From a virus (lineage: Duplodnaviria > Heunggongvirae > Uroviricota > Caudoviricetes), in the IMG/VR virus record IMGVR_UViG_2778261502_000003, positions 1-9,862 of that record: DNA of 9,862 bases, one strand, 5' to 3'. Below are positions 1 to 9,862 of this stretch, piece after piece. A model generated the notes under the pieces. It saw nothing but the letters and a program-made list of their open reading frames with translations. It ran no database searches and was not told the DNA's origin. Numbering within the stretch: position 1 is the stretch's first letter; every line of letters begins with the position of its first letter. Both the position numbers and the translations under genes were made by a program.

Positions 1-897
1 TTAATCCAGACAGTTAGATTTTGCATTTTTGAACGTATACCTGTTTTGATGTAATGCTATGATCTCTTTAATATCATTTGCTGAGTAGCCATCAAGTTCA
101 ATTTCTGATATCTCACCTTCGATCAGCACGATTTTGGCTGTCTGATTACTGGATACCGTAGTAGATTTTGACTTGAGTGTCTTACGTCCTTTAATCAACC
201 ATGACCCGCCACCATCTTTGACCCAGTCAACAAGAGTCTCAGCCCAATGAGAACCTTTGAGTTTCAAATTGCCATCTTTGTTTTCAAAAATAGTGGTCAC
301 AGTATTTGCATTGGTATCTTTTTCAAGCTTCCGTAAATCATTGGTTAACGCTTGCTTACTGCTTCCGAAGATATTCGGAGTAATCAGCGTAAAGCTGACT
401 TTGTCGATAAATTGAAGCCTATGGTATTCTGACCAAAAATCTTCCATTTCAAGACAAGGCTCTATAAATATTCTAAGTCCTAACTGAGCCAAATAGTCGT
501 TATTGGCTAGATCTTCAAACGCTTTAGCAACTTGTTGCGCATCCTTGAAAACAGCGGTTTTCCTCTCAACCAGTAACACCTGCTCTACTTTGTCCCAAAT
601 CCATACGATAGGTGGATAGTTGTCTACATCGTACTCTCGAAAGTCTTTATCATGTCCTTTAATCTTTTGCAGCTTTGATATGACTCCAGCCATAACACCA
701 TCAGTAGGTTTTATGCTCAATTTCAGGGTGTAACTAGTTTTCTTATGAACGGAAGGTGTTGATGACGTCATGTGTAAATTTTTTGCAGCGATAACCATAG
801 CATTTTCAAAATGAGAGATATCTTTCTGAACAGTTCCTTTCGAAAAGAGGTCTGGATCGCGCGGTCTCATTAACACACGTAAGGCATACAACTGCAT
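1..897 (-). CDS. Hypothetical protein, 298 aa; integrase-adjacent prophage cargo gene of unknown family
   Basis: Complete minus-strand ORF (ATG at 895-897, TAA at 1-3). AGGAG Shine-Dalgarno about 7 nt upstream of the ATG. Visibly AT-rich compared with the phage structural genes. No HExxH motif (so not the Lit protease that e14 carries here) and no motif I can assign to a known family. Confidence 0.6.
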   Translation of the reverse strand: MQLYALRVLMRPRDPDLFSKGTVQKDISHFENAMVIAAKNLHMTSSTPSVHKKTSYTLKLSIKPTDGVMAGVISKLQKIKGHDKDFREYDVDNYPPIVWIWDKVEQVLLVERKTAVFKDAQQVAKAFEDLANNDYLAQLGLRIFIEPCLEMEDFWSEYHRLQFIDKVSFTLITPNIFGSSKQALTNDLRKLEKDTNANTVTTIFENKDGNLKLKGSHWAETLVDWVKDGGGSWLIKGRKTLKSKSTTVSSNQTAKIVLIEGEISEIELDGYSANDIKEIIALHQNRYTFKNAKSNCLD

Positions 898-973
898 AAG
901 AAAACTCCTGTAAACTATTTGGTTTCATTATTCCATAAAACCAAGCACTTTCAAGAGCTTAATTTTCTTTCAA

Positions 974-993
974 TTCTGTATGCATATACAGTA
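974..993. promoter_or_regulatory. Candidate LexA (SOS) box overlapping the putative promoter of the 298-aa gene
   Basis: Minus strand reads TACTGTATATGCATACAGAA: CTGT-N8-ACAG with an AT-rich spacer, 14/16 identical to the LexA core consensus CTGTATATATATACAG as I recall it. It lies in the gap between the integrase stop (1013) and the 298-aa gene start (897). A -35-like TTTACA (minus strand, plus coordinates 1005-1010) and a -10-like TATATG inside the box would place the operator over the -10. Confidence 0.5.
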
Positions 994-1012
994 TCATTCA
1001 ATTTTGTAAAAT

Positions 1013-1690
1013 TCAAACCTTGATTTTTGCCCATTCCTTACCACGATCATCATGGTATTTAGCTGTCTGGTTAGGCGATTTATGTCCCAGAAGTTTTTGG
1101 GTGTCGACGCCCTGAGCTTCGTAAAGTCGCTCAGATAAAGATCTTTGTTCATGGAATGTGGCGGGCGAACCTTCACCCCAGTCAATGCCTGCTAAATCCC
1201 TCGCTTTACTGAAATTCATCGTCAATGTATTGGCTTTTACTTGCGCGCCACGTTCAGCCTGTGAAGTAGTACGAAAAAAATGTACAAGGTATGGGCTGAC
1301 TGCATAGTCACGGCAGCGGGCTACTACATCGCGTAAACTCCAGTTAATTGCATTGAGGCGAAGGGAAAGCGGGATGGCGATTTTGCTCCCGGTTTTTTCT
1401 TGGATGACGTGAAGATGATCATCCCAAATATCGCTAAATTTCATACGTGAGATATCACCTAACCGTTGGCCGGTAACCAGTGCTAACAGCATGGCATTCC
1501 CCATATAACGATGGCGGGCATCTGCGATATCAAAGATTTTTTGCCATTCTTCAAGACTTAACCGTTGTCGGGTAATTTTTCTTCTGGGTTGTTTGGTTGC
1601 CAGTGCTGGATTATAGCCCGGAGGGACTTCCCCATAGTGTTGTGCCTCCTTGAATACATCAATTAGAACGGAGCGGACTACTTGCGCCAC
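1013..1690 (-). pseudogene. Lambda-family tyrosine integrase, C-terminal (catalytic-domain) fragment; N-terminal arm-binding/core-binding region missing
   Basis: Translation aligns block-for-block with the catalytic domain of lambda Int as I remember it: LALVTGQRLGDI (Arg box), KTGSKIAIPL, ATFHEQRSLSERLY (His/Arg box), LLGHKSPNQTAKYHDDRGKEW (Tyr nucleophile region). Only about 225 codons are present against roughly 350-400 for intact family members. The open frame begins at the junction with the terminase fragment. Confidence 0.85.
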
Positions 1691-1731
1691 CGGAGTGGTT
1701 CGCTGAAGAAGATCTCCCTCTCGCCACGATC

Positions 1732-2052
1732 ATGTGGCAACTGACAACCAAAGAACTCTGCGGTCAGGGCCTGCTGTGCGTGACTGACCTCGCGGTGCTT
1801 GAGCGGTGGTGCGTGGCCTATGAGTTCTGGCGACGTGCCGTGAAAAATATTGCCAGACAGGGCAACACCATCACCGGTGCAATGGGCGGCATGGTCAAAA
1901 ATCCGGAGCTGACCGCCAAAAAAGAACAGGAGTCCGAGATGAGCAGTACGGGGGCAATGCTCGGACTCGACCCCAGCAGCCGCCAGCGTCTGATTGGCCT
2001 GGCGGGGCAGAAGAAAGCCACTAACCCGTTTCTGAAAATTATCGAATCATGA
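1732..2052 (+). pseudogene. Small terminase subunit (P27/HK97-like), C-terminal fragment
   Basis: About 106 codons resembling the C-terminal half of P27-family small terminases. The stop overlaps the large terminase start in ATGA (2049-2052), the usual terS-terL coupling. The N-terminal half is absent; the frame is interrupted just upstream, next to the integrase fragment. Confidence 0.55.
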
Positions 2053-3782
2053 GCCGGAAATCTTACCCCAACGTAAATGCTGCAAATCAGTATGCCCGTG
2101 ATGTCGTGCGCGGAAAGATTGTGGCCTGCCAGTTTGTGATTCAGGCCTGCCAGCGCCATCTTGATGACCTGATGGCGGAAAAAAGTAAGTCGTTTCGTTA
2201 CCGCTTCGACAAGGACCTGGCTGAACGGGCCGCCAAATTTATTCAGCTGTTGCCGCACACCAAGGGTGAGTGGGCATTCAAGAGGATGCCTATCACGCTG
2301 GAGCCGTGGCAGCTCTTTGTGATCTGCTGCGCGTTTGGCTGGGTCAATAAAGGCTCCCGGCTGCGCCGCTTCCGTGAGGTGTATACCGAAATCCCCCGTA
2401 AGAACGGCAAATCGGCAATTTCTGCCGGTGTCGCCCTGTATTGTTTTGCCTGTGATAACGAGTTCGGCGCGGAAGTGTATTCCGGTGCCACGACGGAGAA
2501 ACAGGCATGGGAAGTCTTTCGTCCGGCAAGACTGATGTGTAAACGCACACCCATGCTGACGGAAGCGTTCGGGATTGAGGTTAACGCCTCAAACATGAAC
2601 CGTCCGGAGGATGGTGCGCGTTTTGAACCGCTGATCGGTAACCCCGGTGATGGTTCATCACCCCACTGTGCGGTGGTGGATGAATATCACGAGCACGCCA
2701 CCGATGCGCTTTACACCACGATGCTTACCGGGATGGGGGCGCGACGTCAGCCACTGATGTGGGCTATCACTACCGCCGGGTACAACATTGAGGGGCCGTG
2801 CTACGACAAACGGCGGGAAGTCATCGAGATGCTCAACGGCTCGGTGCCTAACGATGAACTGTTCGGGATTATCTATACCGTTGATGAAGGTGACGACTGG
2901 ACCGACCCGCAGGTGCTGGAAAAAGCTAACCCGAATATTGGCGTGTCGGTTTATCGCGAATTTTTGTTAAGTCAGCAGCAGCGTGCGAAAAATAACGCCC
3001 GTCTGGCAAACGTCTTTAAAACAAAACACCTCAATATCTGGGTGTCGGCGCGTTCGGCGTATTTCAACCTGGTGAGCTGGCAGAGCTGCGAGGATAAATC
3101 ACTGACCCTTGAGCAGTTCGAGGGGCAGCCGTGCATTCTGGCCTTTGACCTGGCGCGTAAGCTGGATATGAACAGCATGGCGCGACTTTATACCCGCGAG
3201 ATTGACGGTAAAACGCATTACTACAGTGTGGCCCCGCGTTTCTGGGTACCGTATGACACGGTGTACAGCGTCGAGAAAAATGAAGATCGACGGACAGCCG
3301 AACGCTTTCAGAAATGGGTGGAAATGGGCGTTCTGACCGTTACCGATGGTGCGGAGGTGGATTATCGCTACATCCTCGAGGAGGCCAAAGCGGCGAACAA
3401 AATCAGCCCGGTCAGTGAGTCACCCATTGACCCCTTCGGGGCGACCGGGTTGTCACATGACCTTGCTGATGAAGACCTGAACCCCATCACTATCATTCAG
3501 AACTACACCAACATGTCCGACCCGATGAAAGAGCTGGAAGCGGCAATTGAATCGGGGCGCTTTCATCATGATGGCAATCCCATCATGACCTGGTGTATCG
3601 GCAACGTGGTCGGCAAAACCATTCCGGGTAACGATGATGTGGTGAAGCCCGTCAAAGAGCAGGCGGAAAACAAAATCGATGGTGCAGTTGCGCTGATTAT
3701 GGCGGTTGGCAGAGCCATGCTGTACGAGAAAGAAGACACGCTGTCTGACCACATTGAGTCCTATGGGATCCGCTCGCTTTAA
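2049..3782 (+). CDS. Phage terminase large subunit (Terminase_1 / HK97-type)
   Basis: 577-aa ORF with a Walker A-like motif (PRKNGKS) and Walker B-like motif (AVVDEYHE) in the N-terminal ATPase region. Length and overall composition are typical of HK97-type large terminases. It is translationally coupled to the upstream terS fragment. High GC, typical of the phage backbone. Confidence 0.9.
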
Positions 3783-3793
3783 CTGAGGTAATT

Positions 3794-3976
3794 ATGATCA
3801 TGCTGATTCTCGCGCCTCTGGTGGGCGTGCTGGGGGCGCTTTTGCTGGCGTATGGTGCCTGGCTGATTTATCCCCCGGCGGGGTTTGTTGTTGCCGGGGC
3901 GTTGTGCCTGTTCTGGTCGTGGCTGGTGGCGCGATATCTCGACCGTACACAGTCGTCAGTCGGCGGAGGTAAATAG
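3794..3976 (+). CDS. Small hydrophobic protein (two predicted transmembrane helices), phage head-module ORF of unknown function
   Basis: 60-aa [56 protein letters not shown] Shine-Dalgarno upstream of the ATG. Its TAG stop overlaps the GTG start of the next gene (TAGTG). Confidence 0.45.
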
Positions 3977-4941
3977 TGTTCTTTTCGGGATTATTTCAAC
4001 GAAAAAGTGACGCACCGGTGACCACGCCAGCAGAGCTGGCGGACGCTATCGGGCTGTCCTACGACACCTATACCGGAAAGCAGATCAGCAGTCAGCGGGC
4101 CATGCGACTGACGGCGGTTTTTTCCTGCGTCAGGGTGCTGGCAGAGTCGGTCGGGATGTTGCCCTGCAACCTGTATCACCTGAACGGCAACCTGAAACAG
4201 AGAGCCACCGGCGAACGTCTGCATAAGCTGATTTCCACGCATCCCAATGGCTATATGACGCCGCAGGAGTTTTGGGAGCTGGTGGTCACCTGTCTGTGCC
4301 TGCGGGGAAACTTTTACGCCTACAAAGTGAAAGCATTTGGCGAAGTGGCTGAACTGCTGCCCGTCGATCCCGGCTGTGTGGTAACCGAATTTGCCGAACA
4401 GGAAGAAATTGCCTTTACCACCGGCGATGGTACCAAGAAGCCGAAAGGGTTCCTGGCGTATGAATCCACTGATGAAACCGATAAGGTCCGGGCGTTCGGC
4501 AAACTTCAGCATATTGTATCCGGCGAAGCGACGGCGGTGACCGCAGACGCCATTATCAAACTGATTTACACGCTGCGTAAGGCACACCGCACTGGCGCGA
4601 AGTTCATGATGAACAACAACAGCCTGTTTGCCATCCGTCTGCTTAAAGACAGCGAGGGTAACTATCTGTGGCGTCCGGGGCTGGAACTGGGGCAGCCGTC
4701 CTCTCTGGCGGGTTACGGTATCGCTGAAAACGAACAGATGCCGGATATCGCCGCTGATGCGAAAGCCATTGCATTTGGTAACTTCAAACGGGGTTACACC
4801 ATCGTTGACCGTATCGGCACCCGCATTCTGCGTGACCCGTACACCAATAAACCGTTTGTCGGTTTTTATACCACCAAGCGCACCGGCGGGATGCTGGTCG
4901 ATTCGCAGGCCATCAAACTGCTGAAGATTGCAGCGGCGTAA
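3976..4941 (+). CDS. Chimeric ORF: HK97-family portal N-terminus fused in frame to HK97-fold major capsid protein C-terminus (deletion derivative, probably non-functional)
   Basis: GTG start with a GGAGG Shine-Dalgarno 7 nt upstream. Residues about 1-140 look like a portal N-terminus (SSQRAMRLTAVFSCVRVLAESVGMLPCNLY ... GNFYAYKV). Residues about 180-321 look like a major capsid C-terminus (YLWRPGLELGQPSSLAGYGIAENEQMPDIA ... AIAFGNFKRGYTIVDRIGTRILRDPYTNKPFVGFYTTKRTGG ... AIKLLK). At 321 aa it is too short to be either protein, and no prohead protease is present. Confidence 0.65.
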   Translation: MFFSGLFQRKSDAPVTTPAELADAIGLSYDTYTGKQISSQRAMRLTAVFSCVRVLAESVGMLPCNLYHLNGNLKQRATGERLHKLISTHPNGYMTPQEFWELVVTCLCLRGNFYAYKVKAFGEVAELLPVDPGCVVTEFAEQEEIAFTTGDGTKKPKGFLAYESTDETDKVRAFGKLQHIVSGEATAVTADAIIKLIYTLRKAHRTGAKFMMNNNSLFAIRLLKDSEGNYLWRPGLELGQPSSLAGYGIAENEQMPDIAADAKAIAFGNFKRGYTIVDRIGTRILRDPYTNKPFVGFYTTKRTGGMLVDSQAIKLLKIAAA

Positions 4942-4947
4942 TCACTC

Positions 4948-4975
4948 AGGGGCGCGGAACCGCGCCCCCTGTTCT
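4948..4975 (+). terminator. GC-rich hairpin downstream of the capsid-fusion ORF (possible intrinsic terminator)
   Basis: AGGGGCGCGG-AA-CCGCGCCCCT is a perfect inverted repeat (4948-4969) followed by GTTCTG. The U-tract is weak, so efficiency is uncertain. Confidence 0.35.
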
Positions 4976-4988
4976 GACGGGTGAAGAA

Positions 4989-5204
4989 TCATGATCCTGA
5001 AACAAGATCTGAAATGGTCACCGGACGGTAAACCTTTGCCAGTTCCGGGTATTCTTCAGCAGAAAAAGCCGCACCATTGCATTTTAGCCAGCCTGTTGGC
5101 GGAGTGGCGGAAGGCCACGGGACAGGCACACCAACGGGTAATGCCGAACCTTCTCCCAAACCAACGTTTATGAAAATGCAGAAATAACGAGCAAATGGCA
5201 TCAT
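4989..5204 (-). pseudogene. Tail-fibre variable-region fragment (Stf / Mu S-type), stub of the invertible segment
   Basis: The minus-strand ORF contains LPVGVPVPWPSATPPTGWLKCNGAAFSAEEYPELAKVY. This is the PWPS...GW..C.G..F....YP.L motif that opens the variable C-terminal part of Mu S / P1 S / e14 Stf tail fibres. The reading frame stops about 45 residues later and no constant N-terminal part is present. Confidence 0.45.
5151..5176. other. Candidate pix/gix-like recombination site (crossover site of the Pin invertible segment)
   Basis: TTCTCCCAAACC-AA-CGTTTATGAAAA is two imperfect inverted 12-bp half-sites around a 2-bp core. The left half matches 10/12 to the gix half-site TTATCCAAAACC recalled from memory. 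It sits where expected, between the tail-fibre variable-region start and pin. Confidence 0.3.
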
Positions 5205-5230
5205 TCCTGCTTTTGTCAGAGGGATCCACT

Positions 5231-5422
5231 ATGCTTATTGGCTATGTACGCGTATCAATAAATGACCAGAACACAGATCTACAACGTAATGCGTTGAACT
5301 GTGCAGGATGCGAGCTGATTTTTGAAGACAAGATAAGCGGTACAAAGTCCGAGAGCCTAGGGCTGACAGTGCTGTTCTTGATGCAAATTAAAGGATTTAA
5401 TAGTGAGTTGCGGCCTTACTAA
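5231..5422 (+). pseudogene. pin: Serine DNA invertase (Pin/Gin/Hin family), N-terminal fragment
   Basis: MLIGYVRVSINDQNTDLQRNALNCAGCELIFEDKISGTKSE matches the N-terminal catalytic block of Gin/Hin/Pin invertases, including the catalytic serine in YVRVS. Similarity is lost after about 45 codons and the frame runs into unrelated AT-rich sequence. The ORF track's 5195 start is an in-frame upstream ATG; ATG 5231 is the likelier native start. Confidence 0.75.
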
Positions 5423-5433
5423 TGTAAGGCCGC
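5410..5433. terminator. Perfect 10-bp-stem hairpin between the convergent pin stub and the GmrSD-like gene (likely bidirectional terminator)
   Basis: GCGGCCTTAC-TAAT-GTAAGGCCGC is a perfect inverted repeat, followed on the plus strand by the T-rich TATAATCATTTTATT. It lies 23 bp from the stop of the minus-strand gene. Confidence 0.4.
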
Positions 5434-5455
5434 TATAATCATTTTATTAATTGCA

Positions 5456-7345
5456 TTAATCGTATTTTGGCCATACTTTCAATGCAATTTCCCCCAACTT
5501 TTTACCTCGCTCCAGTATTTCACTCTCATCCCATTTATCCTTAAGTATAAGTGGTATGTTCAGTCGTAGATTGGTGTGGACGATGAGAGCATCACGTTTT
5601 TTCAGAAATACAGCATTCTGAACGGAACGGTTTACGCTAAGGTTAAGCAAAGTTAGATTTCCCAACGTAGCTATCGTTTGTTGCCGTTTCCTTACCAGTA
5701 GCTGTTCAGGGGTAAGATCGGTTCCAGACAGAACAATTTGGTTCATTACCGTAGCATCTGAATTTGTCACCATATGACCATTTTCGAGAGGCCAACAGGA
5801 ATACCAACTTTGAGGCATAAGATGATCGATATCGAGATTAGAAAGATTTGGAACATCAGGCTTTTCTGTCTTCACTTGGCGACAAAGTTCTCTTTCAAGT
5901 TCCGTTAACATTGAGCGCATTTTCGGTGCGTCGAGCCTGCCAGGATAAAGTGGAGCATTGATGCAAGCGTTGAGAAATTCTGAGTCCCCAGGCCAACGTG
6001 AGGCTTCGCCATTTAAGCTATTGAGGATATTACGTAACTCAATACTGGAAATTTCCGTTTTAGACAAGTGTCGCAATACATTCATAAATACATTGTTGTA
6101 ATTCTTTGGCGTCAGGCCACATACGGATCTTCGTACTACGTAGGAGACAAGATCATTATACATGGCTGCTTTCTCATCATCGGCGATGTTAGCTATCGAA
6201 ATGAACAAAGCAAGCGGATAGAGTGTCGTCACATCATAGGCTGCGATGCGATGTCCAAAGTGTGAGATGGGGGTTGTGCCAAAACCACCAACCAATTCTT
6301 TATATTGTGATGCATATTGTTTGAGGCGCTTTACTTGCAGATCTGCTCGTTGTGAAGGCAAGTCCTTACTTACATAATCACGATACTCATTGTAAAGGCG
6401 AGACAGATCAATTTCACGCTGCCTTTCTGATTGCAATGTCGCATGTACAAGCCACTCCATGCGTGGTTTATTAATACGTCCACGGCGTTGCTTTTCCGAC
6501 CAGTATTTATCTTCAAAGATCTTCCACTCATTTTCATATAATTCAATAGTATTAATATTTTCATGCTCAGCGCACATAAAGATATAGTTGCGAATAAGAT
6601 CCGTTGCATGAAGTTCCGCTCCTCGCCCATTTAATGTTTCAAAAATTATTTGGGCATCATCTTCAGCTTCGAGAAATATGCTTACCAGTTTCAGATCCGT
6701 CAAGACAGCCTCAATTAGTGCTACAGCATTTTCTTGTGGTGAGCGGTTTTCTATTTTAATCCATTTTATAAAGGCTTCAGTAAAAAACCATAATGCCTCT
6801 AGTGACGGCGGGTGGTTGAAATGTTTACGTAACGTACCATGTTGCGTGAAGCTATCAGAAAATACATTACGGAGATCGTCAATATTATCAACATTAAGAC
6901 TTTGAATAAAATGAGTTTGATCTCGAAAAGTTGGCCACAGTTTGAAGCATTCTACCTTTTTATTTCTCATCGTTGCTTCGTTTGTATTTTTCAAGCAAGT
7001 CAATACTAACCCTTCCAGTTCAGAAAGGCCTGTAGCACGCAATGATAATCGAATGGATGCCAGAATATATTGAAGAGTGGTTAAACGTTGCTGGCCGTCA
7101 ATAATATGTATGGTATCTACACCTAACAAGCTGTTTTTGAGTTGAGGTTCCAGCACCACCGCGCCGAGGAAATGAGGGGTTGGTTTTGTTCCCGAAAGTC
7201 GGCTCTGTGCTTTTTCGAAGATATCCTCCAGCAAAGCTGACCATTGGTTTCGTTGCGTCCATACGTAGGCACGTTGATAGAATGGAACACGATATTGTCG
7301 TTGATTTTGGAAAATTTGCTGGATGGTTAGCGTTTCGGATTTCAT
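5456..7345 (-). CDS. GmrSD-like Type IV (modification-dependent) restriction endonuclease; DUF262 (ParB-like NTPase) N-terminal domain plus DUF1524 (His-Me finger nuclease) C-terminal domain
   Basis: 629-aa ORF. N-terminus has the DUF262 signature: FYQRAYVWT, then IHIIDGQQRLTTL (DGQQR at residues 83-87, plus-strand 7085-7099). C-terminus has the DUF1524 signature: DIDHLMPQSW (His codon at 5822-5824), then LGNLTLLNLSVNRSVQNAVFLKK. AT-rich and convergent with the pin stub. The architecture matches GmrSD, BrxU and SspE. Confidence 0.8.
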   Translation of the reverse strand: MKSETLTIQQIFQNQRQYRVPFYQRAYVWTQRNQWSALLEDIFEKAQSRLSGTKPTPHFLGAVVLEPQLKNSLLGVDTIHIIDGQQRLTTLQYILASIRLSLRATGLSELEGLVLTCLKNTNEATMRNKKVECFKLWPTFRDQTHFIQSLNVDNIDDLRNVFSDSFTQHGTLRKHFNHPPSLEALWFFTEAFIKWIKIENRSPQENAVALIEAVLTDLKLVSIFLEAEDDAQIIFETLNGRGAELHATDLIRNYIFMCAEHENINTIELYENEWKIFEDKYWSEKQRRGRINKPRMEWLVHATLQSERQREIDLSRLYNEYRDYVSKDLPSQRADLQVKRLKQYASQYKELVGGFGTTPISHFGHRIAAYDVTTLYPLALFISIANIADDEKAAMYNDLVSYVVRRSVCGLTPKNYNNVFMNVLRHLSKTEISSIELRNILNSLNGEASRWPGDSEFLNACINAPLYPGRLDAPKMRSMLTELERELCRQVKTEKPDVPNLSNLDIDHLMPQSWYSCWPLENGHMVTNSDATVMNQIVLSGTDLTPEQLLVRKRQQTIATLGNLTLLNLSVNRSVQNAVFLKKRDALIVHTNLRLNIPLILKDKWDESEILERGKKLGEIALKVWPKYD

Positions 7346-7601
7346 TGTTTACCTATAAATAACATTAAGTGACATTCTACAAGAGTAAGAAATTCATCTG
7401 AGTCAGAACAATCATTTTTATGTAGTTATGATACAGTGTATTTGTTACTGGTGAAGTAAAAATAAGAAACCCCGCTTTTGAATGCTGACGCGCTACGGTT
7501 TCATTGGATATTTTTTGTCTCTCCTCCATCCCGTTGGTGTTCTGTTTAGACTGATAACTTGCTGTTTTAATTGATATTAGTTTCTTGCGCCGCCCAATCA
7601 T

Positions 7602-7635
7602 GGTTGGTGGGTTGGTGGGTTGGTGGGTTGGTGGG
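7602..7635. repeat. Perfect tandem octanucleotide repeat (GGTTGGTG)x4 plus a partial unit
   Basis: Four exact head-to-tail copies of GGTTGGTG at 7602-7633, followed by GG. A degenerate GTTGGTG also occurs about 70 bp away (about 7533). It lies in the non-coding region upstream of the GmrSD-like gene on the minus strand. The G-rich strand has four GGG runs. Confidence 0.9.
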
Positions 7636-8162
7636 AGTTAAATCCACATTGGTATGAATAACATAGAATATGAATTAGTGTTTCAGAATTGCTTCAGCCA
7701 TCACTTTTTAATACGTTCAATTTGAATGTTTATTTCCGAAACAATTTTTTCAGGTTTCAGTCCCTCGTTAGATTGCACAAAATCTCTAATTTGCATCATT
7801 CGATGTGCACAAATTTGTAATTCGCTATAAACACTTAGCTCGTCAGATTCATTTTGAGATTGTTCACCTGTTTAAAATTCTACATAAGTATGTGGCGGAT
7901 TGTGATAAACACGAGAAATCGGGGTTGGCCACCATTCCTCACCGGTCACTACGTCCGCATCGAATAGTACAGTTTTGTCAATTTCCATTAATTTCTGGAT
8001 AAGAACAGAAGTTTTCAAGCGAACCTCCATTTTGCCATAAAGTGGTTATCAAAACGCTACGTAAACTATACAAAATCAGCGAGTTATGGTGAAGGTAAAA
8101 AAACAAGTTTAGATGTTCGTTAAGTATAAAATTGTTTTAATTCAATTGGATATAATAATTTT

Positions 8163-8335
8163 CTAAATCTAATGTTACGCCATATGGGCTGGACTGAAGC
8201 CGCAGACCTGATTGTTAAAGGTATGGAAGGCGCAATCAATGCGAAGACCGTAACCTATGACTTCGAGCGTTTGATGGAAGGCGCTAAACTGCTGAAATGT
8301 TCAGAATTTGGTGATGCGATCATCAAGAACATGTA
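8163..8335 (+). pseudogene. icdC: icd 3'-terminal fragment (icdC-type remnant created by prophage integration into isocitrate dehydrogenase gene); marks attR
   Basis: Translation [54 protein letters not shown]-stop matches the C-terminal ~55 residues of E. coli isocitrate dehydrogenase as I remember them, with two substitutions. The sequence upstream of about 8163 is unrelated AT-rich DNA, so only the 3' end of the gene is present. Confidence 0.85.
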
Positions 8336-8359
8336 ATCACTACATGTGTTTAATATTGC

Positions 8360-8391
8360 AACGGGCGTATAACACGCCCGTTGTTTTATTT
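8360..8391 (+). terminator. Rho-independent terminator of icd
   Basis: AACGGGCGT-ATAAC-ACGCCCGTT is a perfect 9-bp stem, followed by TGTTTTATTT, 25 bp after the icd stop codon. Confidence 0.7.
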
Positions 8392-8438
8392 ATGTAGGTA
8401 TTATTAATAGCATATCGAGCATATTTATATAAAACCCT

Positions 8439-8762
8439 TTACTTGAGCCCATATGGGCATATTTTTATAATGCAACTATTATGCAAACATTTATTTGTTA
8501 TTTTGCTTTCTCCTGGAGGACACTCTTGACTGCTTTTGAGTAGACTCCATAAATCCTTGTTGAATGGTGCGATGTTATAAATAGTAATAGGATATTCTTT
8601 ATCTTTAAGGATAATTCCAGATTTAACCGGTGTAAATATACTGCCAGGAGGGAGAAATATAGTAGATTGATACCAGATGATCATTTTCATATTACCCCAT
8701 ATGGCTGAAAAAGATATGCCGCATGAAGGTTGAATTATCGTGTCAATTACTATCCACTTCAT
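8439..8762 (-). CDS. iraM: Anti-adaptor protein IraM (RpoS stabiliser, PhoPQ-regulated)
   Basis: 107-aa [35 protein letters not shown]...ICPYGLK matches my recollection of E. coli IraM (YcgW) nearly residue for residue. Its position immediately downstream of icdC and upstream of ycgX matches K-12 synteny. Very AT-rich. Confidence 0.8.
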
Positions 8763-9219
8763 TTGTTATGTCTTATCCCACGGTATTTAATATAGTTCAT
8801 TTGGATGTTCATTTCTTTATTTTGCATATGAGTATATTACCCCTTCAAAAAATAAATTAATTAAAACGATTGCTTATATAAAACAAAATTTAAAGCAAGG
8901 AATCTCAATGGATGTTAAACAAAATGAGATTTAGTGAAAACAATAAATTATTCACTTCGTTTTAGATTTGTTTAGCTATAATGTTATACATTCAAATGAC
9001 TGAACATCCTGTAATTAAAGCATAGCCTTTATGCTACTTTGTGCCAATTTGCTAAACATTATGGTTGCCTTTTTATATAACGATAATAATGAATATAAGC
9101 ATGACATGAGAATAAGGTTTCAATTTTTGAGTTATATAGGAAAGGTTTAACCTGTTCCTGGCTAAAATACATATAACTGGATGATGACTAAACCAAAACA
9201 CATGTGCGTTAAGTATTGA

Positions 9220-9250
9220 AACGGGCGTATGGCACACCCGTTGTTTTTAT
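9220..9250 (+). terminator. Orphan second copy of the icd-type terminator hairpin
   Basis: AACGGGCGT-ATGGCAC-ACCCGTT (one mismatch in the stem) followed by TGTTTTTAT. Together with its 5' flank (ACATGTGCGTTAAGTATTGA), about 50 bp are clearly homologous to 8343-8392. No plus-strand ORF precedes it. Confidence 0.45.
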
Positions 9251-9457
9251 AAATATATTAACCGTTATAAAATAACGTATAGAAAGTCAAGTGATCACAT
9301 TTCAAATATCAATTTGATAGTATTGGCATGGTGATTATTTATGGGTAGCAATAAAAGGACAGTATTTATCATCCATAGGGATAGTCTCTGTACTTTTATT
9401 CCCATTATGCTAATGCCTTACTGAATTATGAAGCATTTCTTAAGCATCCAACTTTAG

Positions 9458-9862
9458 CTAGATTAATGGTTTATTATTTTCTACATCTTCAATATATAAA
9501 AGCGTATTATCAATGGCGTAGTAACTGCGTTTGTTATGATTAACATCAGTAACCCAACGGAAAACGCCCGCGCCTGCTAGTGTTGAACAGTATTCCCGAA
9601 ATGTAGATTTTCCGCAAATATGAAGCAATGCGGCCTCTTTTATTTTAGCAGGGTTCTTGGTCGTACTAACTTTTAACAGGTTCCTGGTTCCTCTTAATAA
9701 CAAAACCGTGTCATCGTGAGTAATAATTCTGATGTTATCCGTAGCCAGATAATAAATGTAATGTGCAATACGGTGATGTTTTAATTCTGAATAAAACCAG
9801 GAGAAGTTTTGCTCTTTTCTCACTTGCTCAAACATCTTTTGAAAAACAACGACCTGATCCAT
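9458..9862 (-). CDS. ycgX: YcgX-like DUF1398 family protein
   Basis: 134-aa minus-strand ORF whose ATG is the last three bases of the window. Sequence and position (next gene after iraM) match E. coli ycgX as I recall it. If the true start lies further upstream it would be outside the window. Confidence 0.7.
   Translation of the reverse strand: MDQVVVFQKMFEQVRKEQNFSWFYSELKHHRIAHYIYYLATDNIRIITHDDTVLLLRGTRNLLKVSTTKNPAKIKEAALLHICGKSTFREYCSTLAGAGVFRWVTDVNHNKRSYYAIDNTLLYIEDVENNKPLI

What the first reader, a model, noticed from the sequence alone, without database searches (positions are those of the whole stretch)
3976..4941. In-frame portal::major-capsid fusion ORF
A single 321-codon ORF starts with a recognisable portal N-terminus and ends with a recognisable HK97-fold capsid C-terminus. 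The junction maps roughly to 4400-4530. The portal C-terminus, the prohead protease/scaffold and the capsid N-terminus are missing. The deletion preserved the reading frame and the upstream translational coupling (GGAGG, TAGTG overlap), so a chimeric protein could still be made. This is either neutral decay caught early or a selected product; either way it is a clean natural example of module fusion.
Basis: partly seen in the sequence, partly recalled or inferred. Interest (0 to 1): 0.5.

Follow-up and report, generated by a model that had tools for sequence, protein, structure and literature searches.

The report
Portal–capsid fusion from prophage deletion
A 2,124-base deletion in a decaying E. 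coli prophage joined the start of its portal gene, in frame, to the end of its capsid gene; this is an ordinary, very recent by-product of prophage decay, not a new kind of protein.

Summary
ORF 3976-4941 (+, 321 aa) is portal residues 1-136 fused in frame to major-capsid residues 217-401. It keeps the parental GGAGG and the TAGTG stop/start overlap with ymfR.

An intact relative (E. coli E4, >99.7% identical) shows a 2,124-bp deletion between imperfect direct repeats (TGGTA-CCGAA / TGGCAACCGAA). It removed portal 137-413, the whole prohead protease and capsid 1-216. It is one of three deletions (14.2, 2.1 and 13.8 kb) that cut a ~40-kb e14-family prophage at icd to ~8 kb. That remnant has no intact integrase, excisionase, immunity, Q, lysis or tail genes.

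The protein is already in RefSeq (WP_089602968.1, "phage major capsid protein"). It is a singleton cluster, and the three assemblies carrying it are 100% identical across the shared DNA. At least three other portal::capsid fusions with different junctions exist, plus TerL::capsid, RusA::capsid and K-12's YmfN.

Best reading: neutral decay caught early.

One unexplained extra: the portal breakpoint is nucleotide-identical to that of K-12 e14 BeeE, and GGTA recurs at deletion junctions in this family.

The parts
1013..1689 (-). 3' fragment of the e14-type integrase gene intE. It keeps the C-terminal ~225 codons; the N-terminal ~150 codons and the promoter are deleted.
   Evidence: Pfam Phage_integrase 4.4e-19. 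It is 100% identical to E. coli E4 intE up to base 1689.
1682..1689 (.). Deletion junction D1 (14,237 bp lost: int 5' end, xis, immunity, replication, Q, lysis, HNH, terS 5' end). It lies at an imperfect 8-bp repeat, TTGCGCCA / TTGAGCCA.
   Evidence: BLAST of the window against the intact E4 prophage.
1690..2052 (+). 3' fragment of the P27-family small terminase gene. The first 44 codons are lost; the residual ORF is 1732-2052.
   Evidence: Pfam Terminase_4 1.8e-21. The parental gene is 495 nt in GE3 and E4.
2049..3782 (+). Intact large terminase gene (577 aa).
   Evidence: Pfam TerL_ATPase plus TerL_nuclease. Same length as in the intact prophages.
3794..3976 (+). ymfR (60-aa membrane protein). 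Its stop codon overlaps the start of the fusion ORF.
   Evidence: PHROG 502 at 2.5e-28. Annotated ymfR in GE3, E4 and K-12.
3965..3969 (+). GGAGG Shine-Dalgarno sequence, 6 nt upstream of the GTG start. It is inherited unchanged from the parental portal gene.
   Evidence: Sequence. The parental ymfR-portal arrangement is the same.
3976..4941 (+). The portal(1-136)::capsid(217-401) fusion ORF, 321 aa. It equals RefSeq WP_089602968.1.
3976..4383 (+). Portal gene codons 1-136 of a 413-codon parent.
   Evidence: Collinear with the E4/GE3 portal. PHROG 12 portal aa 1-138. Aligns to residues 38-141 and 41-150 of solved portals 9lbn_H and 8cez_A.
4379..4389 (.). Deletion junction D2 (2,124 bp = 708 codons lost), with the crossover after base 4383. 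It lies at an imperfect direct repeat: portal TGGTA-CCGAA, capsid TGGCAACCGAA.
4384..4941 (+). Major capsid gene codons 217-401 plus the stop codon (parent 401 codons).
   Evidence: No nucleotide differences from the homologous part of the E4 capsid gene. Pfam Phage_capsid profile 104-280 of 280. Aligns to residues 198-385 of the RcGTA capsid 6tb9, E = 2e-44.
4949..4968 (+). G+C-rich hairpin (GGGGCGCGG-AA-CCGCGCCCC) inherited from the region downstream of the parental capsid gene. It has no T tract.
   Evidence: Sequence. This stretch is collinear with E4. It was not called by the terminator scan.
5026..5030 (.). Deletion junction D3 (~13.8 kb lost: head completion, tail, baseplate and most tail-fibre genes). 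It lies at a GGTA microhomology.
   Evidence: The right parent was read in strain 20KM0223N.
5031..5176 (-). Remnant of the invertible tail-fibre variable segment, ending at the Pin crossover site pixR (TTCTCCCAAACCAACGTTTATGAAAA, 5151-5176).
   Evidence: Pfam Collar domain 1.5e-10. pix inverted repeats in K-12 e14. Window sequence.
5231..5374 (+). 5' fragment of the pin invertase gene. It is already truncated in the intact relatives that carry GmrSD. The 3' end coordinate is approximate.
   Evidence: Pfam Resolvase 6.3e-08. Annotated as a recombinase pseudogene in E4, FT130 and 20KM0223N.

Best explanation
The ORF is a deletion-junction chimera in a cryptic e14-family prophage inserted in icd of E. 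coli. This family has an SfII/ST64B/phiP27-type head module.

Shown: a single 2,124-bp deletion between an imperfect 11-bp direct repeat in the portal gene (…GTGTGGTA|CCGAAG) and in the capsid gene (…GCTGGCA|ACCGAA) joined portal codon 136 to capsid codon 217. The two genes share a reading frame and the crossover resolved left of the 1-nt indel in the repeat, so the product is in frame. It keeps the parental ribosome-binding site and the coupling to ymfR. The same element suffered two further deletions, of 14.2 and 13.8 kb.

Inferred: the deletion arose by short-homology illegitimate recombination or replication slippage. The chimera has no function and is at most weakly expressed, because the remnant lacks the late promoter and Q antiterminator. 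Neither half is a complete fold. The event is recent and selectively neutral, and the frame was preserved by the roughly one-in-three chance.
For: - **Two-family composition:** Pfam and PHROG scans give non-overlapping portal (aa 1-136/138) and capsid (aa 137-321) matches.
- **Collinearity with intact prophages:** The window matches E. coli E4 and GE3 in segments 1-1689, 1682-4389, 4379-5030 and 5026-9862. These define three deletions of 14,237, 2,124 and 13,830 bp at short repeats. E4 carries the same cargo genes at both ends.
- **Recency:** The ORF differs from E4 at 3 nt in the portal part and 0 nt in the capsid part. It has no residue that is absent from intact relatives.
- **Rarity and clonality:** The exact protein is a singleton 90% cluster. 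It was read on three contigs whose DNA is 100% identical to the window over all shared bases. None of 5,426 complete E. coli genomes carries the junction.
- **Recurrence of the kind, not of this junction:** Independent portal::capsid fusions exist at portal residue ~116 joined to capsid ~67 (P0002), ~225 to ~268 (P0003) and ~64 to ~282 (P0025). Others seen are TerL::capsid, protease::capsid, RusA::capsid, lysozyme::TerL and TerL::tape-measure. K-12 e14 carries YmfN, annotated 'chimeric replication protein/phage terminase'.
- **No expression or function signal:** No promoter-like site lies upstream of the truncated terS, and promoter-like sites in the region are at background frequency (5 found, 4.0 expected). 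There is no hit to anti-phage defence models.
- **Incomplete folds:** By alignment to solved structures, only about residues 38-150 of a ~425-431-aa portal and about 198-385 of a 386-aa capsid are represented.
Against: - The ORF is intact, with a good Shine-Dalgarno sequence and translational coupling, and the upstream terL and ymfR are also intact. Translation from any read-through transcript is therefore possible, and expression was not tested.
- Because the event is so young, the absence of decay in the ORF cannot separate neutrality from purifying selection.
- The longest perfect microhomology (ACCGAA, 6 nt) would have given a 2,125-bp out-of-frame deletion. The junction observed is the in-frame alternative.
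- The portal breakpoint is identical to the K-12 e14 BeeE breakpoint. This suggests the deletion endpoints are not fully random.
Confidence: 0.88

Rival explanations
1. The chimera is a selected product. A truncated portal/capsid hybrid would be retained because it poisons head assembly of superinfecting related phages (a dominant-negative decoy), or because it serves some other host-beneficial role.
For: - The ORF is intact and in frame, and it keeps its Shine-Dalgarno sequence and coupling to ymfR.
- The remnant keeps bona fide defence cargo, a GmrSD type IV restriction enzyme.
- K-12 e14 keeps the same portal 1-136 fragment as BeeE.
- The in-frame junction was used rather than the longer out-of-frame microhomology.
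Against: - It is a singleton cluster in one clonal lineage, and it is absent from 5,426 complete genomes.
- Other fusions in the family break the portal at residues ~64, ~116 and ~225 and the capsid at ~67, ~268 and ~282, so no particular architecture is preferred.
- In K-12 the portal fragment is joined out of frame to jayE.
- No late promoter or Q remains.
- There is no match to defence-system models.
- Both halves lack elements needed for assembly.
Confidence: 0.05
2. The deletion was not random illegitimate recombination. A sequence-directed process (an enzyme or DNA structure acting at GGTA-containing sites) produced it, and the fusion is a by-product of a deletion hot spot. This concerns origin and is compatible with the neutral-decay reading.
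For: - The left breakpoint, …GTGTGGTA|, is the same nucleotide as in K-12 e14 BeeE/jayE, although the right partners differ.
- GGTA ends exactly at the breakpoint in at least one parent in 5 of 15 independent junctions. Its background frequency is 0.0032. The binomial probability is 3e-8; it is 8e-6 after correcting for 256 possible tetramers, and 4e-4 if the portal site is counted only once.
- A TerL site, GGTA|ACCCCGGT|GATGG, is used by two independent events 9 nt apart.
Against: - The motif was noticed post hoc.
- The one new junction from 80 IMG/VR loci (L089, GATG|ACCGA) lacks it.
- No third partner of the portal site turned up in the metagenome or species-representative scans.
- Only two junctions are perfect GGTA/GGTA, which gives P = 6e-4 before multiple-testing correction.
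- The local hairpin is not unusually stable (z = -1.1).
- The junctions do not fit the Pin crossover site.
- No candidate enzyme was identified.
Confidence: 0.25
3. The fusion is an assembly artefact: a false join of portal and capsid reads.
For: Two of the three sources are draft assemblies and the third is an automatic assembly of a sequencing run.
Against: The same junction and the same flanks appear in three separately assembled records: two GenBank assemblies and a Logan assembly of SRR3957146. The repeat at the junction is only 11 bp, far shorter than assembler k-mers. Real, finished genomes show the same kind of junction (K-12 and FT130).
Confidence: 0.01

Closest known systems
YmfN (oweE'::'aaaE) of cryptic prophage e14 in E. 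coli K-12
   Same: It belongs to the same prophage family and sits at the same chromosomal site (icd). It is an in-frame ORF created by an internal deletion (9.2 kb, GGT microhomology) that joins the 5' end of one gene to the 3' end of another. RefSeq annotates it as 'chimeric replication protein/phage terminase'.
   Different: The partners differ: a replication protein and TerL, rather than portal and capsid. YmfN occurs in every K-12-type e14 seen here, whereas the present fusion was found only in one clonal lineage.
BeeE (portal fragment) / jayE pseudogene junction of K-12 e14
   Same: It has the identical portal breakpoint, after codon 136 (…GTGTGGTA|), and the same retained upstream block terL-ymfR-portal(1-136).
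   Different: The right partner is the baseplate J gene (13,283-bp deletion), joined out of frame, so BeeE ends after 21 unrelated residues. Here the partner is the capsid gene (2,124 bp), joined in frame.
Intact head modules of Shigella phages SfII/SfIV, Salmonella phage ST64B, phage phiP27 and E. coli prophages (strains E4, GE3)
   Same: The window is 97-99.7% identical in DNA to SfII and to the E4/GE3 prophages, about 96.8% to ST64B and about 87% to phiP27. The gene order is the same: terS-terL-ymfR-portal-protease-capsid.
   Different: They have separate portal (413 aa), HK97-family prohead protease (216 aa) and major capsid (401 aa) genes. The window lacks 2,124 bp spanning these.
Other deletion fusions in the same family (P0002 from E. 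albertii, P0003, P0025, P0007, P0015, P0016; FT130 TerL::tape-measure)
   Same: They are in-frame chimeras of head-module genes that retain the capsid C-terminus. They lie in defective prophages that carry further deletions.
   Different: Each has its own junction: portal residues ~116, ~225 and ~64 joined to capsid residues ~67, ~268 and ~282. Some have other 5' partners (TerL, RusA, protease).

Membership tests
Phage portal protein (Pfam PF04860, HK97/SPP1-type) | Significant sequence homology to the family | tested here: met
   Pfam 1.1e-23 at 84.3 bits, against a cutoff of 39.1. PHROG 12 at 2.4e-37.
Phage portal protein (Pfam PF04860, HK97/SPP1-type) | Complete portal domain able to form the dodecameric ring (the C-terminal two thirds of the protein, which by general knowledge of portal folds carry the stem, clip and crown) | tested here: not met
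   Only portal residues 1-136 of 413 are present. The Pfam envelope covers profile positions 2-158 of 321, and its right part overlaps capsid sequence. The alignment to solved portals covers only residues ~38-150 of 424-431.
HK97-fold major capsid protein (Pfam PF05065) | Significant sequence homology to the family | tested here: met
   Pfam 3.2e-50. PHROG 15928 at 1.1e-72. RcGTA capsid 6tb9 at 2e-44.
HK97-fold major capsid protein (Pfam PF05065) | Complete capsid protein, including the N-terminal half (by general knowledge of HK97-type capsids, the scaffolding/delta region, N-arm and E-loop) | tested here: not met
   Capsid residues 1-216 of 401 are deleted. Only Pfam profile positions 104-280 of 280 are matched. 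The alignment to 6tb9 starts at residue 198 of 386.
e14-family cryptic prophage at icd | Insertion in the 3' end of icd, with a duplicated icd 3' segment (icdC) at the far end | tested here: met
   In the source contig icd lies upstream and a 54-codon icd C-terminal ORF lies at window 8172-8336. The attL/attR homology starts at ATGTTACGCCA. The layout matches K-12 e14 and E4.
e14-family cryptic prophage at icd | Defective: it lacks genes needed for excision, lysis and virion formation | tested here: met
   Three deletions remove the int N-terminus, xis, immunity, replication, Q, lysis, protease, head completion, tail and baseplate genes.
Deletion-junction chimeric ORF (as YmfN in K-12 e14) | Both halves collinear with adjacent but separate genes of an intact relative, joined at a short repeat | tested here: met
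   The alignments to E4 and GE3 abut at 4379-4389, with 2,124 bp missing between them.
Anti-phage defence or superinfection-exclusion protein | Match to a known defence family, or conservation across lineages | tested here: not met
   No PADLOC hit. The protein is a singleton cluster in one clonal lineage.
Anti-phage defence or superinfection-exclusion protein | Expression and a protective phenotype | not testable with these tools
   This needs proteomics or ribosome profiling plus phage challenge.

The most novel reading that the evidence does not exclude
The fusion marks a sequence-directed deletion hot spot. The portal breakpoint (…GTGTGGTA|, codon 136) is reused to the nucleotide in K-12 e14 and in this element, with different partners. 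GGTA sits at the breakpoint in a third of the independent deletion junctions sampled in this prophage family. If real, decay of e14/SfII-type prophages is shaped by an unidentified site-preferring enzyme or DNA structure rather than by random short-homology recombination.
Probability: 0.2. Interest if true: 0.5.

Novelty: new member of a known kind. Interest (0 to 1): 0.2.

Why it matters
In itself it matters little. It is a well-resolved example of how deletions in decaying prophages create in-frame chimeric ORFs, which annotation pipelines then label as ordinary structural proteins; here RefSeq calls it 'phage major capsid protein'. That is a useful caution for annotation and for counting 'capsid' or 'portal' genes.

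The intact parent is >99.7% identical, so all three deletion junctions can be read to the base. That makes the locus a good natural record of the deletion mechanism. The shared breakpoint with K-12 e14 and the recurrent GGTA, if confirmed on a larger sample, would point to non-random prophage erosion.

Tried and rejected
- **Structure prediction of the chimera.** AlphaFold2 with a 15-sequence alignment gave mean pLDDT 35.9 and pTM 0.28. The model is unusable, so no fold search was run. The low confidence probably reflects the shallow, near-identical alignment and says nothing about foldability.
- **Promoter scan of 900-5500.** It found 5 promoter-like sites against 4.0 expected, none upstream of terS'. 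This is no evidence either way on transcription.
- **Pin invertase acting at quasi-sites as the cause of the deletions.** The real pix site is TTCTCCCAAACC-AA-CGTTTATGAAAA (K-12; window 5151-5176). A crossover at a central dinucleotide of the ACC-GA-A type would give GGTACCGAATTT, not the observed GGTAACCGAATTT. Rejected.
- **A hairpin at the portal breakpoint as a break hot spot.** A 10-bp imperfect stem exists, but the fold is no more stable than shuffles (z = -1.1).
- **The cos site or terminase as a source of GGTA ends.** The cos-proximal sequence shows no relation.
- **A third partner for the portal codon-136 breakpoint.** Scans of metagenome contigs and genome contigs with GATCCCGGCTGTGTGGTAD found only the K-12-type junction in a true portal context (8 loci). 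The other hits were chance matches.
- **An out-of-sample test of the GGTA motif.** 80 IMG/VR loci encoding relatives of this TerL were almost all intact and gave one new junction, without GGTA. Sampling complete E. coli genomes by coverage was inefficient.
- **The 2004 e14 analysis paper.** It could not be retrieved.
- **dN/dS.** Not attempted, because only 3 substitutions separate the ORF from E4.
Full report
**1. The observation**

The window has an ORF at 3976-4941 (+) that starts with GTG and encodes 321 aa. GGAGG lies at 3965-3969. The TAG stop of the preceding 60-codon gene (3974-3976) overlaps the GTG start, giving TAGTG.

Pfam scores the protein against two unrelated families. Phage_portal scores 1.1e-23 (profile positions 2-158 of 321). 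Phage_capsid scores 3.2e-50 (residues 137-318, profile positions 104-280 of 280). PHROGs gives cleaner boundaries: portal for residues 1-138 and major head protein for 137-321.

**2. The setting**

The neighbours are:
- a truncated P27-family small terminase (ORF 1732-2052);
- an intact large terminase (2049-3782);
- ymfR (3794-3976);
- on the other side, a tail-fibre fragment, a truncated pin invertase, a GmrSD type IV restriction enzyme (5456-7345, -) and a 54-codon copy of the icd 3' end (8172-8336).

The exact protein is on record as RefSeq WP_089602968.1, 'phage major capsid protein [Escherichia coli]'. The window is 100% identical to bases 6026-15887 of locus L004, a stretch of contig NLUV01000008.1 (GCA_002233275.1). 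There the element lies between icd and iraM/ycgX. That is the attachment site of the cryptic prophage e14 of K-12.

**3. The intact parent and the exact junction**

The head module is 97-99.7% identical to intact prophages of E. coli strains GE3 and E4 and to Shigella phage SfII. It is about 96.8% identical to Salmonella phage ST64B. In all of these the order is terS (495 nt), terL (1,734), ymfR (183), portal (1,242 nt, 413 aa), HK97-family prohead protease (651 nt) and major capsid (1,206 nt, 401 aa).

Strain E4 carries a complete ~40-kb prophage at icd, with the same cargo genes at both ends as the window. These are a pair of hypothetical genes (298 and 154 aa) next to intE, and GmrSD next to a truncated pin.

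Against E4 the window aligns as four collinear blocks:

| Window block | Identity to E4 |
|---|---|
| 1-1689 | 100% |
| 1682-4389 | 99.74% |
| 4379-5030 | 99.69% |
| 5026-9862 | 99.5% |

The element is therefore an E4-type prophage that has lost three segments:
- **14,237 bp:** int 5' end through terS 5' end, which includes xis, immunity, replication, Q, lysis and HNH;
- **2,124 bp:** the deletion that made the fusion;
- **13,830 bp:** head completion through most of the tail fibre.

At the middle junction the sequences are:
- portal parent: …GGCTGTGTGGTA|CCGAAGCTT
- capsid parent: …GAGCTGGCA|ACCGAATTT
- window: …GGCTGTGTGGTA|ACCGAATTT

The crossover is after window base 4383. Codon 136 (GTA, Val) is the last portal codon and codon 137 (ACC, Thr) is capsid codon 217. 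The deletion removes 708 codons: portal 137-413, the whole protease and capsid 1-216.

The two sites form an imperfect 11-bp direct repeat that differs by a 1-nt indel (TGGTA-CCGAA / TGGCAACCGAA). Resolution left of the indel gives the in-frame 2,124-bp deletion that is seen. Use of the perfect ACCGAA hexamer would have given an out-of-frame 2,125-bp deletion.

**4. Is it a product or debris?**

Several lines point to recent neutral decay.

- **(a) Rarity.** The protein is a singleton at 90% clustering. It was found on three contigs: two GenBank assemblies and one automatic assembly of SRR3957146. All are 100% identical to the window over 5.3-9.9 kb of shared DNA. None of 5,426 complete E. coli genomes has the junction.
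- **(b) Youth.** The ORF differs from E4 at three nucleotides in the portal part and none in the capsid part. It has no residue that is not also seen in an intact relative. There has been no time for either decay or adaptation, so this cannot separate neutrality from constraint.
- **(c) Context.** The remnant has no Q antiterminator, late promoter, lysis genes or any partner structural gene. int is reduced to its C-terminal 225 codons and xis is gone. No promoter-like site precedes the truncated terS, and such sites occur at background frequency in the region.
- **(d) Structure.** By alignment to solved structures, the portal part corresponds only to about residues 38-150 of 424-431-residue portals. 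The capsid part corresponds to residues 198-385 of the 386-residue RcGTA capsid. From general knowledge of these folds, the portal stem, clip and crown and the capsid scaffolding region, N-arm and E-loop are missing, so neither half should assemble. An AlphaFold2 model was too poor to use (pLDDT 35.9).
- **(e) Recurrence of the kind, not of the architecture.** A search of 5.8 billion proteins found three other portal::capsid fusions with different junctions:
  - P0002 from E. albertii, portal ~116 joined to capsid ~67;
  - P0003, portal ~225 joined to capsid ~268;
  - P0025, portal ~64 joined to capsid ~282.

  It also found TerL::capsid (P0007, P0016), protease::capsid (P0013), RusA::capsid (P0015) and rssA::capsid (P0019). 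Their contigs carry further deletions and fusions, such as lysozyme::TerL in L015. Strain FT130 has TerL::tape-measure at the same locus. K-12 e14 has YmfN, annotated as a 'chimeric replication protein/phage terminase'.

Deletions in this family thus routinely produce in-frame chimeras, as expected if about one in three same-strand gene-to-gene deletions preserves the frame. The fusion also has no match to known defence-system models.

I put about 0.88 on neutral deletion debris and about 0.05 on a selected product such as an assembly-poisoning decoy. An assembly artefact is very unlikely, given three separately assembled records and an 11-bp repeat that is far shorter than assembler k-mers.

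**5. An unexpected extra**

K-12's BeeE is the same portal fragment. Its sequence diverges from the intact portal after exactly the same nucleotide (…GTGTGGTA|). There it is joined, out of frame, to the baseplate gene jayE by a 13,283-bp deletion at a GGTA/GGTA microhomology. The two events have different right partners, so neither can derive from the other by homologous exchange.

I then read 15 independent deletion junctions in this prophage family: the window, K-12, FT130 and the contigs of the other fusions. GGTA ends exactly at the breakpoint in at least one parent in five of them:
- the portal-capsid deletion and the 13.8-kb deletion of the window;
- K-12 BeeE/jayE;
- the TerL::capsid fusion of L013;
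- the second junction of L012.

K-12's YmfN junction uses GGT, and its TerL endpoint lies 9 nt from the L013 endpoint (GGTA|ACCCCGGT|GATGG).

GGTA has a frequency of 0.0032 in the E4 prophage. The binomial tail is 3e-8. It is 8e-6 after correcting for 256 tetramers, and 4e-4 if the portal site is counted once.

The caveats are serious:
- The motif was seen post hoc.
- Only two junctions are perfect GGTA/GGTA.
- The single new junction obtained from 80 IMG/VR loci lacks it.
- Scans of two large collections found no third partner for the portal site.

I could exclude the Pin invertase, because the real pix site and crossover do not fit. I could also exclude an unusually stable hairpin and any relation to cos. 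I record this as unexplained. It bears on how the deletion arose, not on what the ORF is.

**6. Comparison with what is known**

The ORF works like, and is a member of, the class of deletion-junction chimeric ORFs in cryptic prophages, of which YmfN of e14 is the annotated type example. It is homologous to portal and HK97-fold capsid families. It fails the test of being a complete member of either, because about two thirds of the portal and about half of the capsid are missing. It should not be annotated simply as 'phage major capsid protein'.

**7. Verdict**

Interest is low (0.2). A modest upside rests on whether the shared breakpoint and the GGTA recurrence survive a systematic survey.

Noticed in passing
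window 4376-4383; K-12 locus L009 12132-12139: The portal-gene breakpoint of this fusion (…GTGTGGTA|, after codon 136) is nucleotide-identical to the breakpoint that created BeeE in K-12 e14. There the right partner is jayE, through a 13.3-kb deletion.
   Followed up: partly
window 4380-4383 and 5027-5030; loci L009, L012, L013: GGTA ends exactly at the breakpoint in 5 of 15 independent deletion junctions of this prophage family, against a background frequency of 0.3%. A TerL site, GGTA|ACCCCGGT|GATGG, is used by two independent events 9 nt apart. The pattern was noticed post hoc and the mechanism is unknown.
   Followed up: partly
window 1682-1689 and 8170-8185: The repeat at the 14.2-kb deletion junction (TTGCGCCA / TTGAGCCA) resembles the start of the e14 attachment-site homology (ATGCTGCGCCA in K-12, ATGTTACGCCA here). 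This hints at an integrase-mediated secondary-site event, but it could be chance.
   Followed up: no
window 5456-7345 (-): A full-length GmrSD-type type IV restriction enzyme (629 aa; PADLOC mREase_IV, full-length match) occupies the position that McrA holds in K-12 e14. It survives in the remnant together with a 298-aa protein at window 1-897 that matches no Pfam family or PADLOC model. So the cargo at both prophage ends outlives the phage genes.
   Followed up: partly
window 5151-5176 and 5231-5374: The Pin crossover site pixR (TTCTCCCAAACCAACGTTTATGAAAA) is intact, but pin is truncated after about 48 codons. The same truncation is present in the otherwise intact E4 prophage, so loss of the invertase predates the three deletions.
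   Followed up: partly
locus L007 6368-8851 (E. coli FT130): At the same icd locus another strain carries an in-frame TerL::tail tape-measure fusion, made by an 8.8-kb deletion and annotated simply as 'phage tail tape measure protein'.
   Followed up: partly
locus L002 (NZ_JBTLFU010000005.1, 3,949 bp): A small contig labelled as an unlocalized plasmid piece holds circularly permuted, frameshifted head genes (protease-capsid-…-ymfR-portal-protease) of the same phage family. It is probably an assembly or read-error artefact.
   Followed up: no
window 3812-3849: A terminator-like hairpin followed by a T-rich tail lies inside ymfR, just upstream of the fusion ORF. The homologous site is annotated as a putative rho-independent terminator in phage SfII. 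Without Q antitermination it might limit read-through into the fusion.
   Followed up: no
window 4278-4285: A perfect Chi site (GCTGGTGG) lies in the retained portal fragment, about 100 bp upstream of the deletion junction.
   Followed up: no
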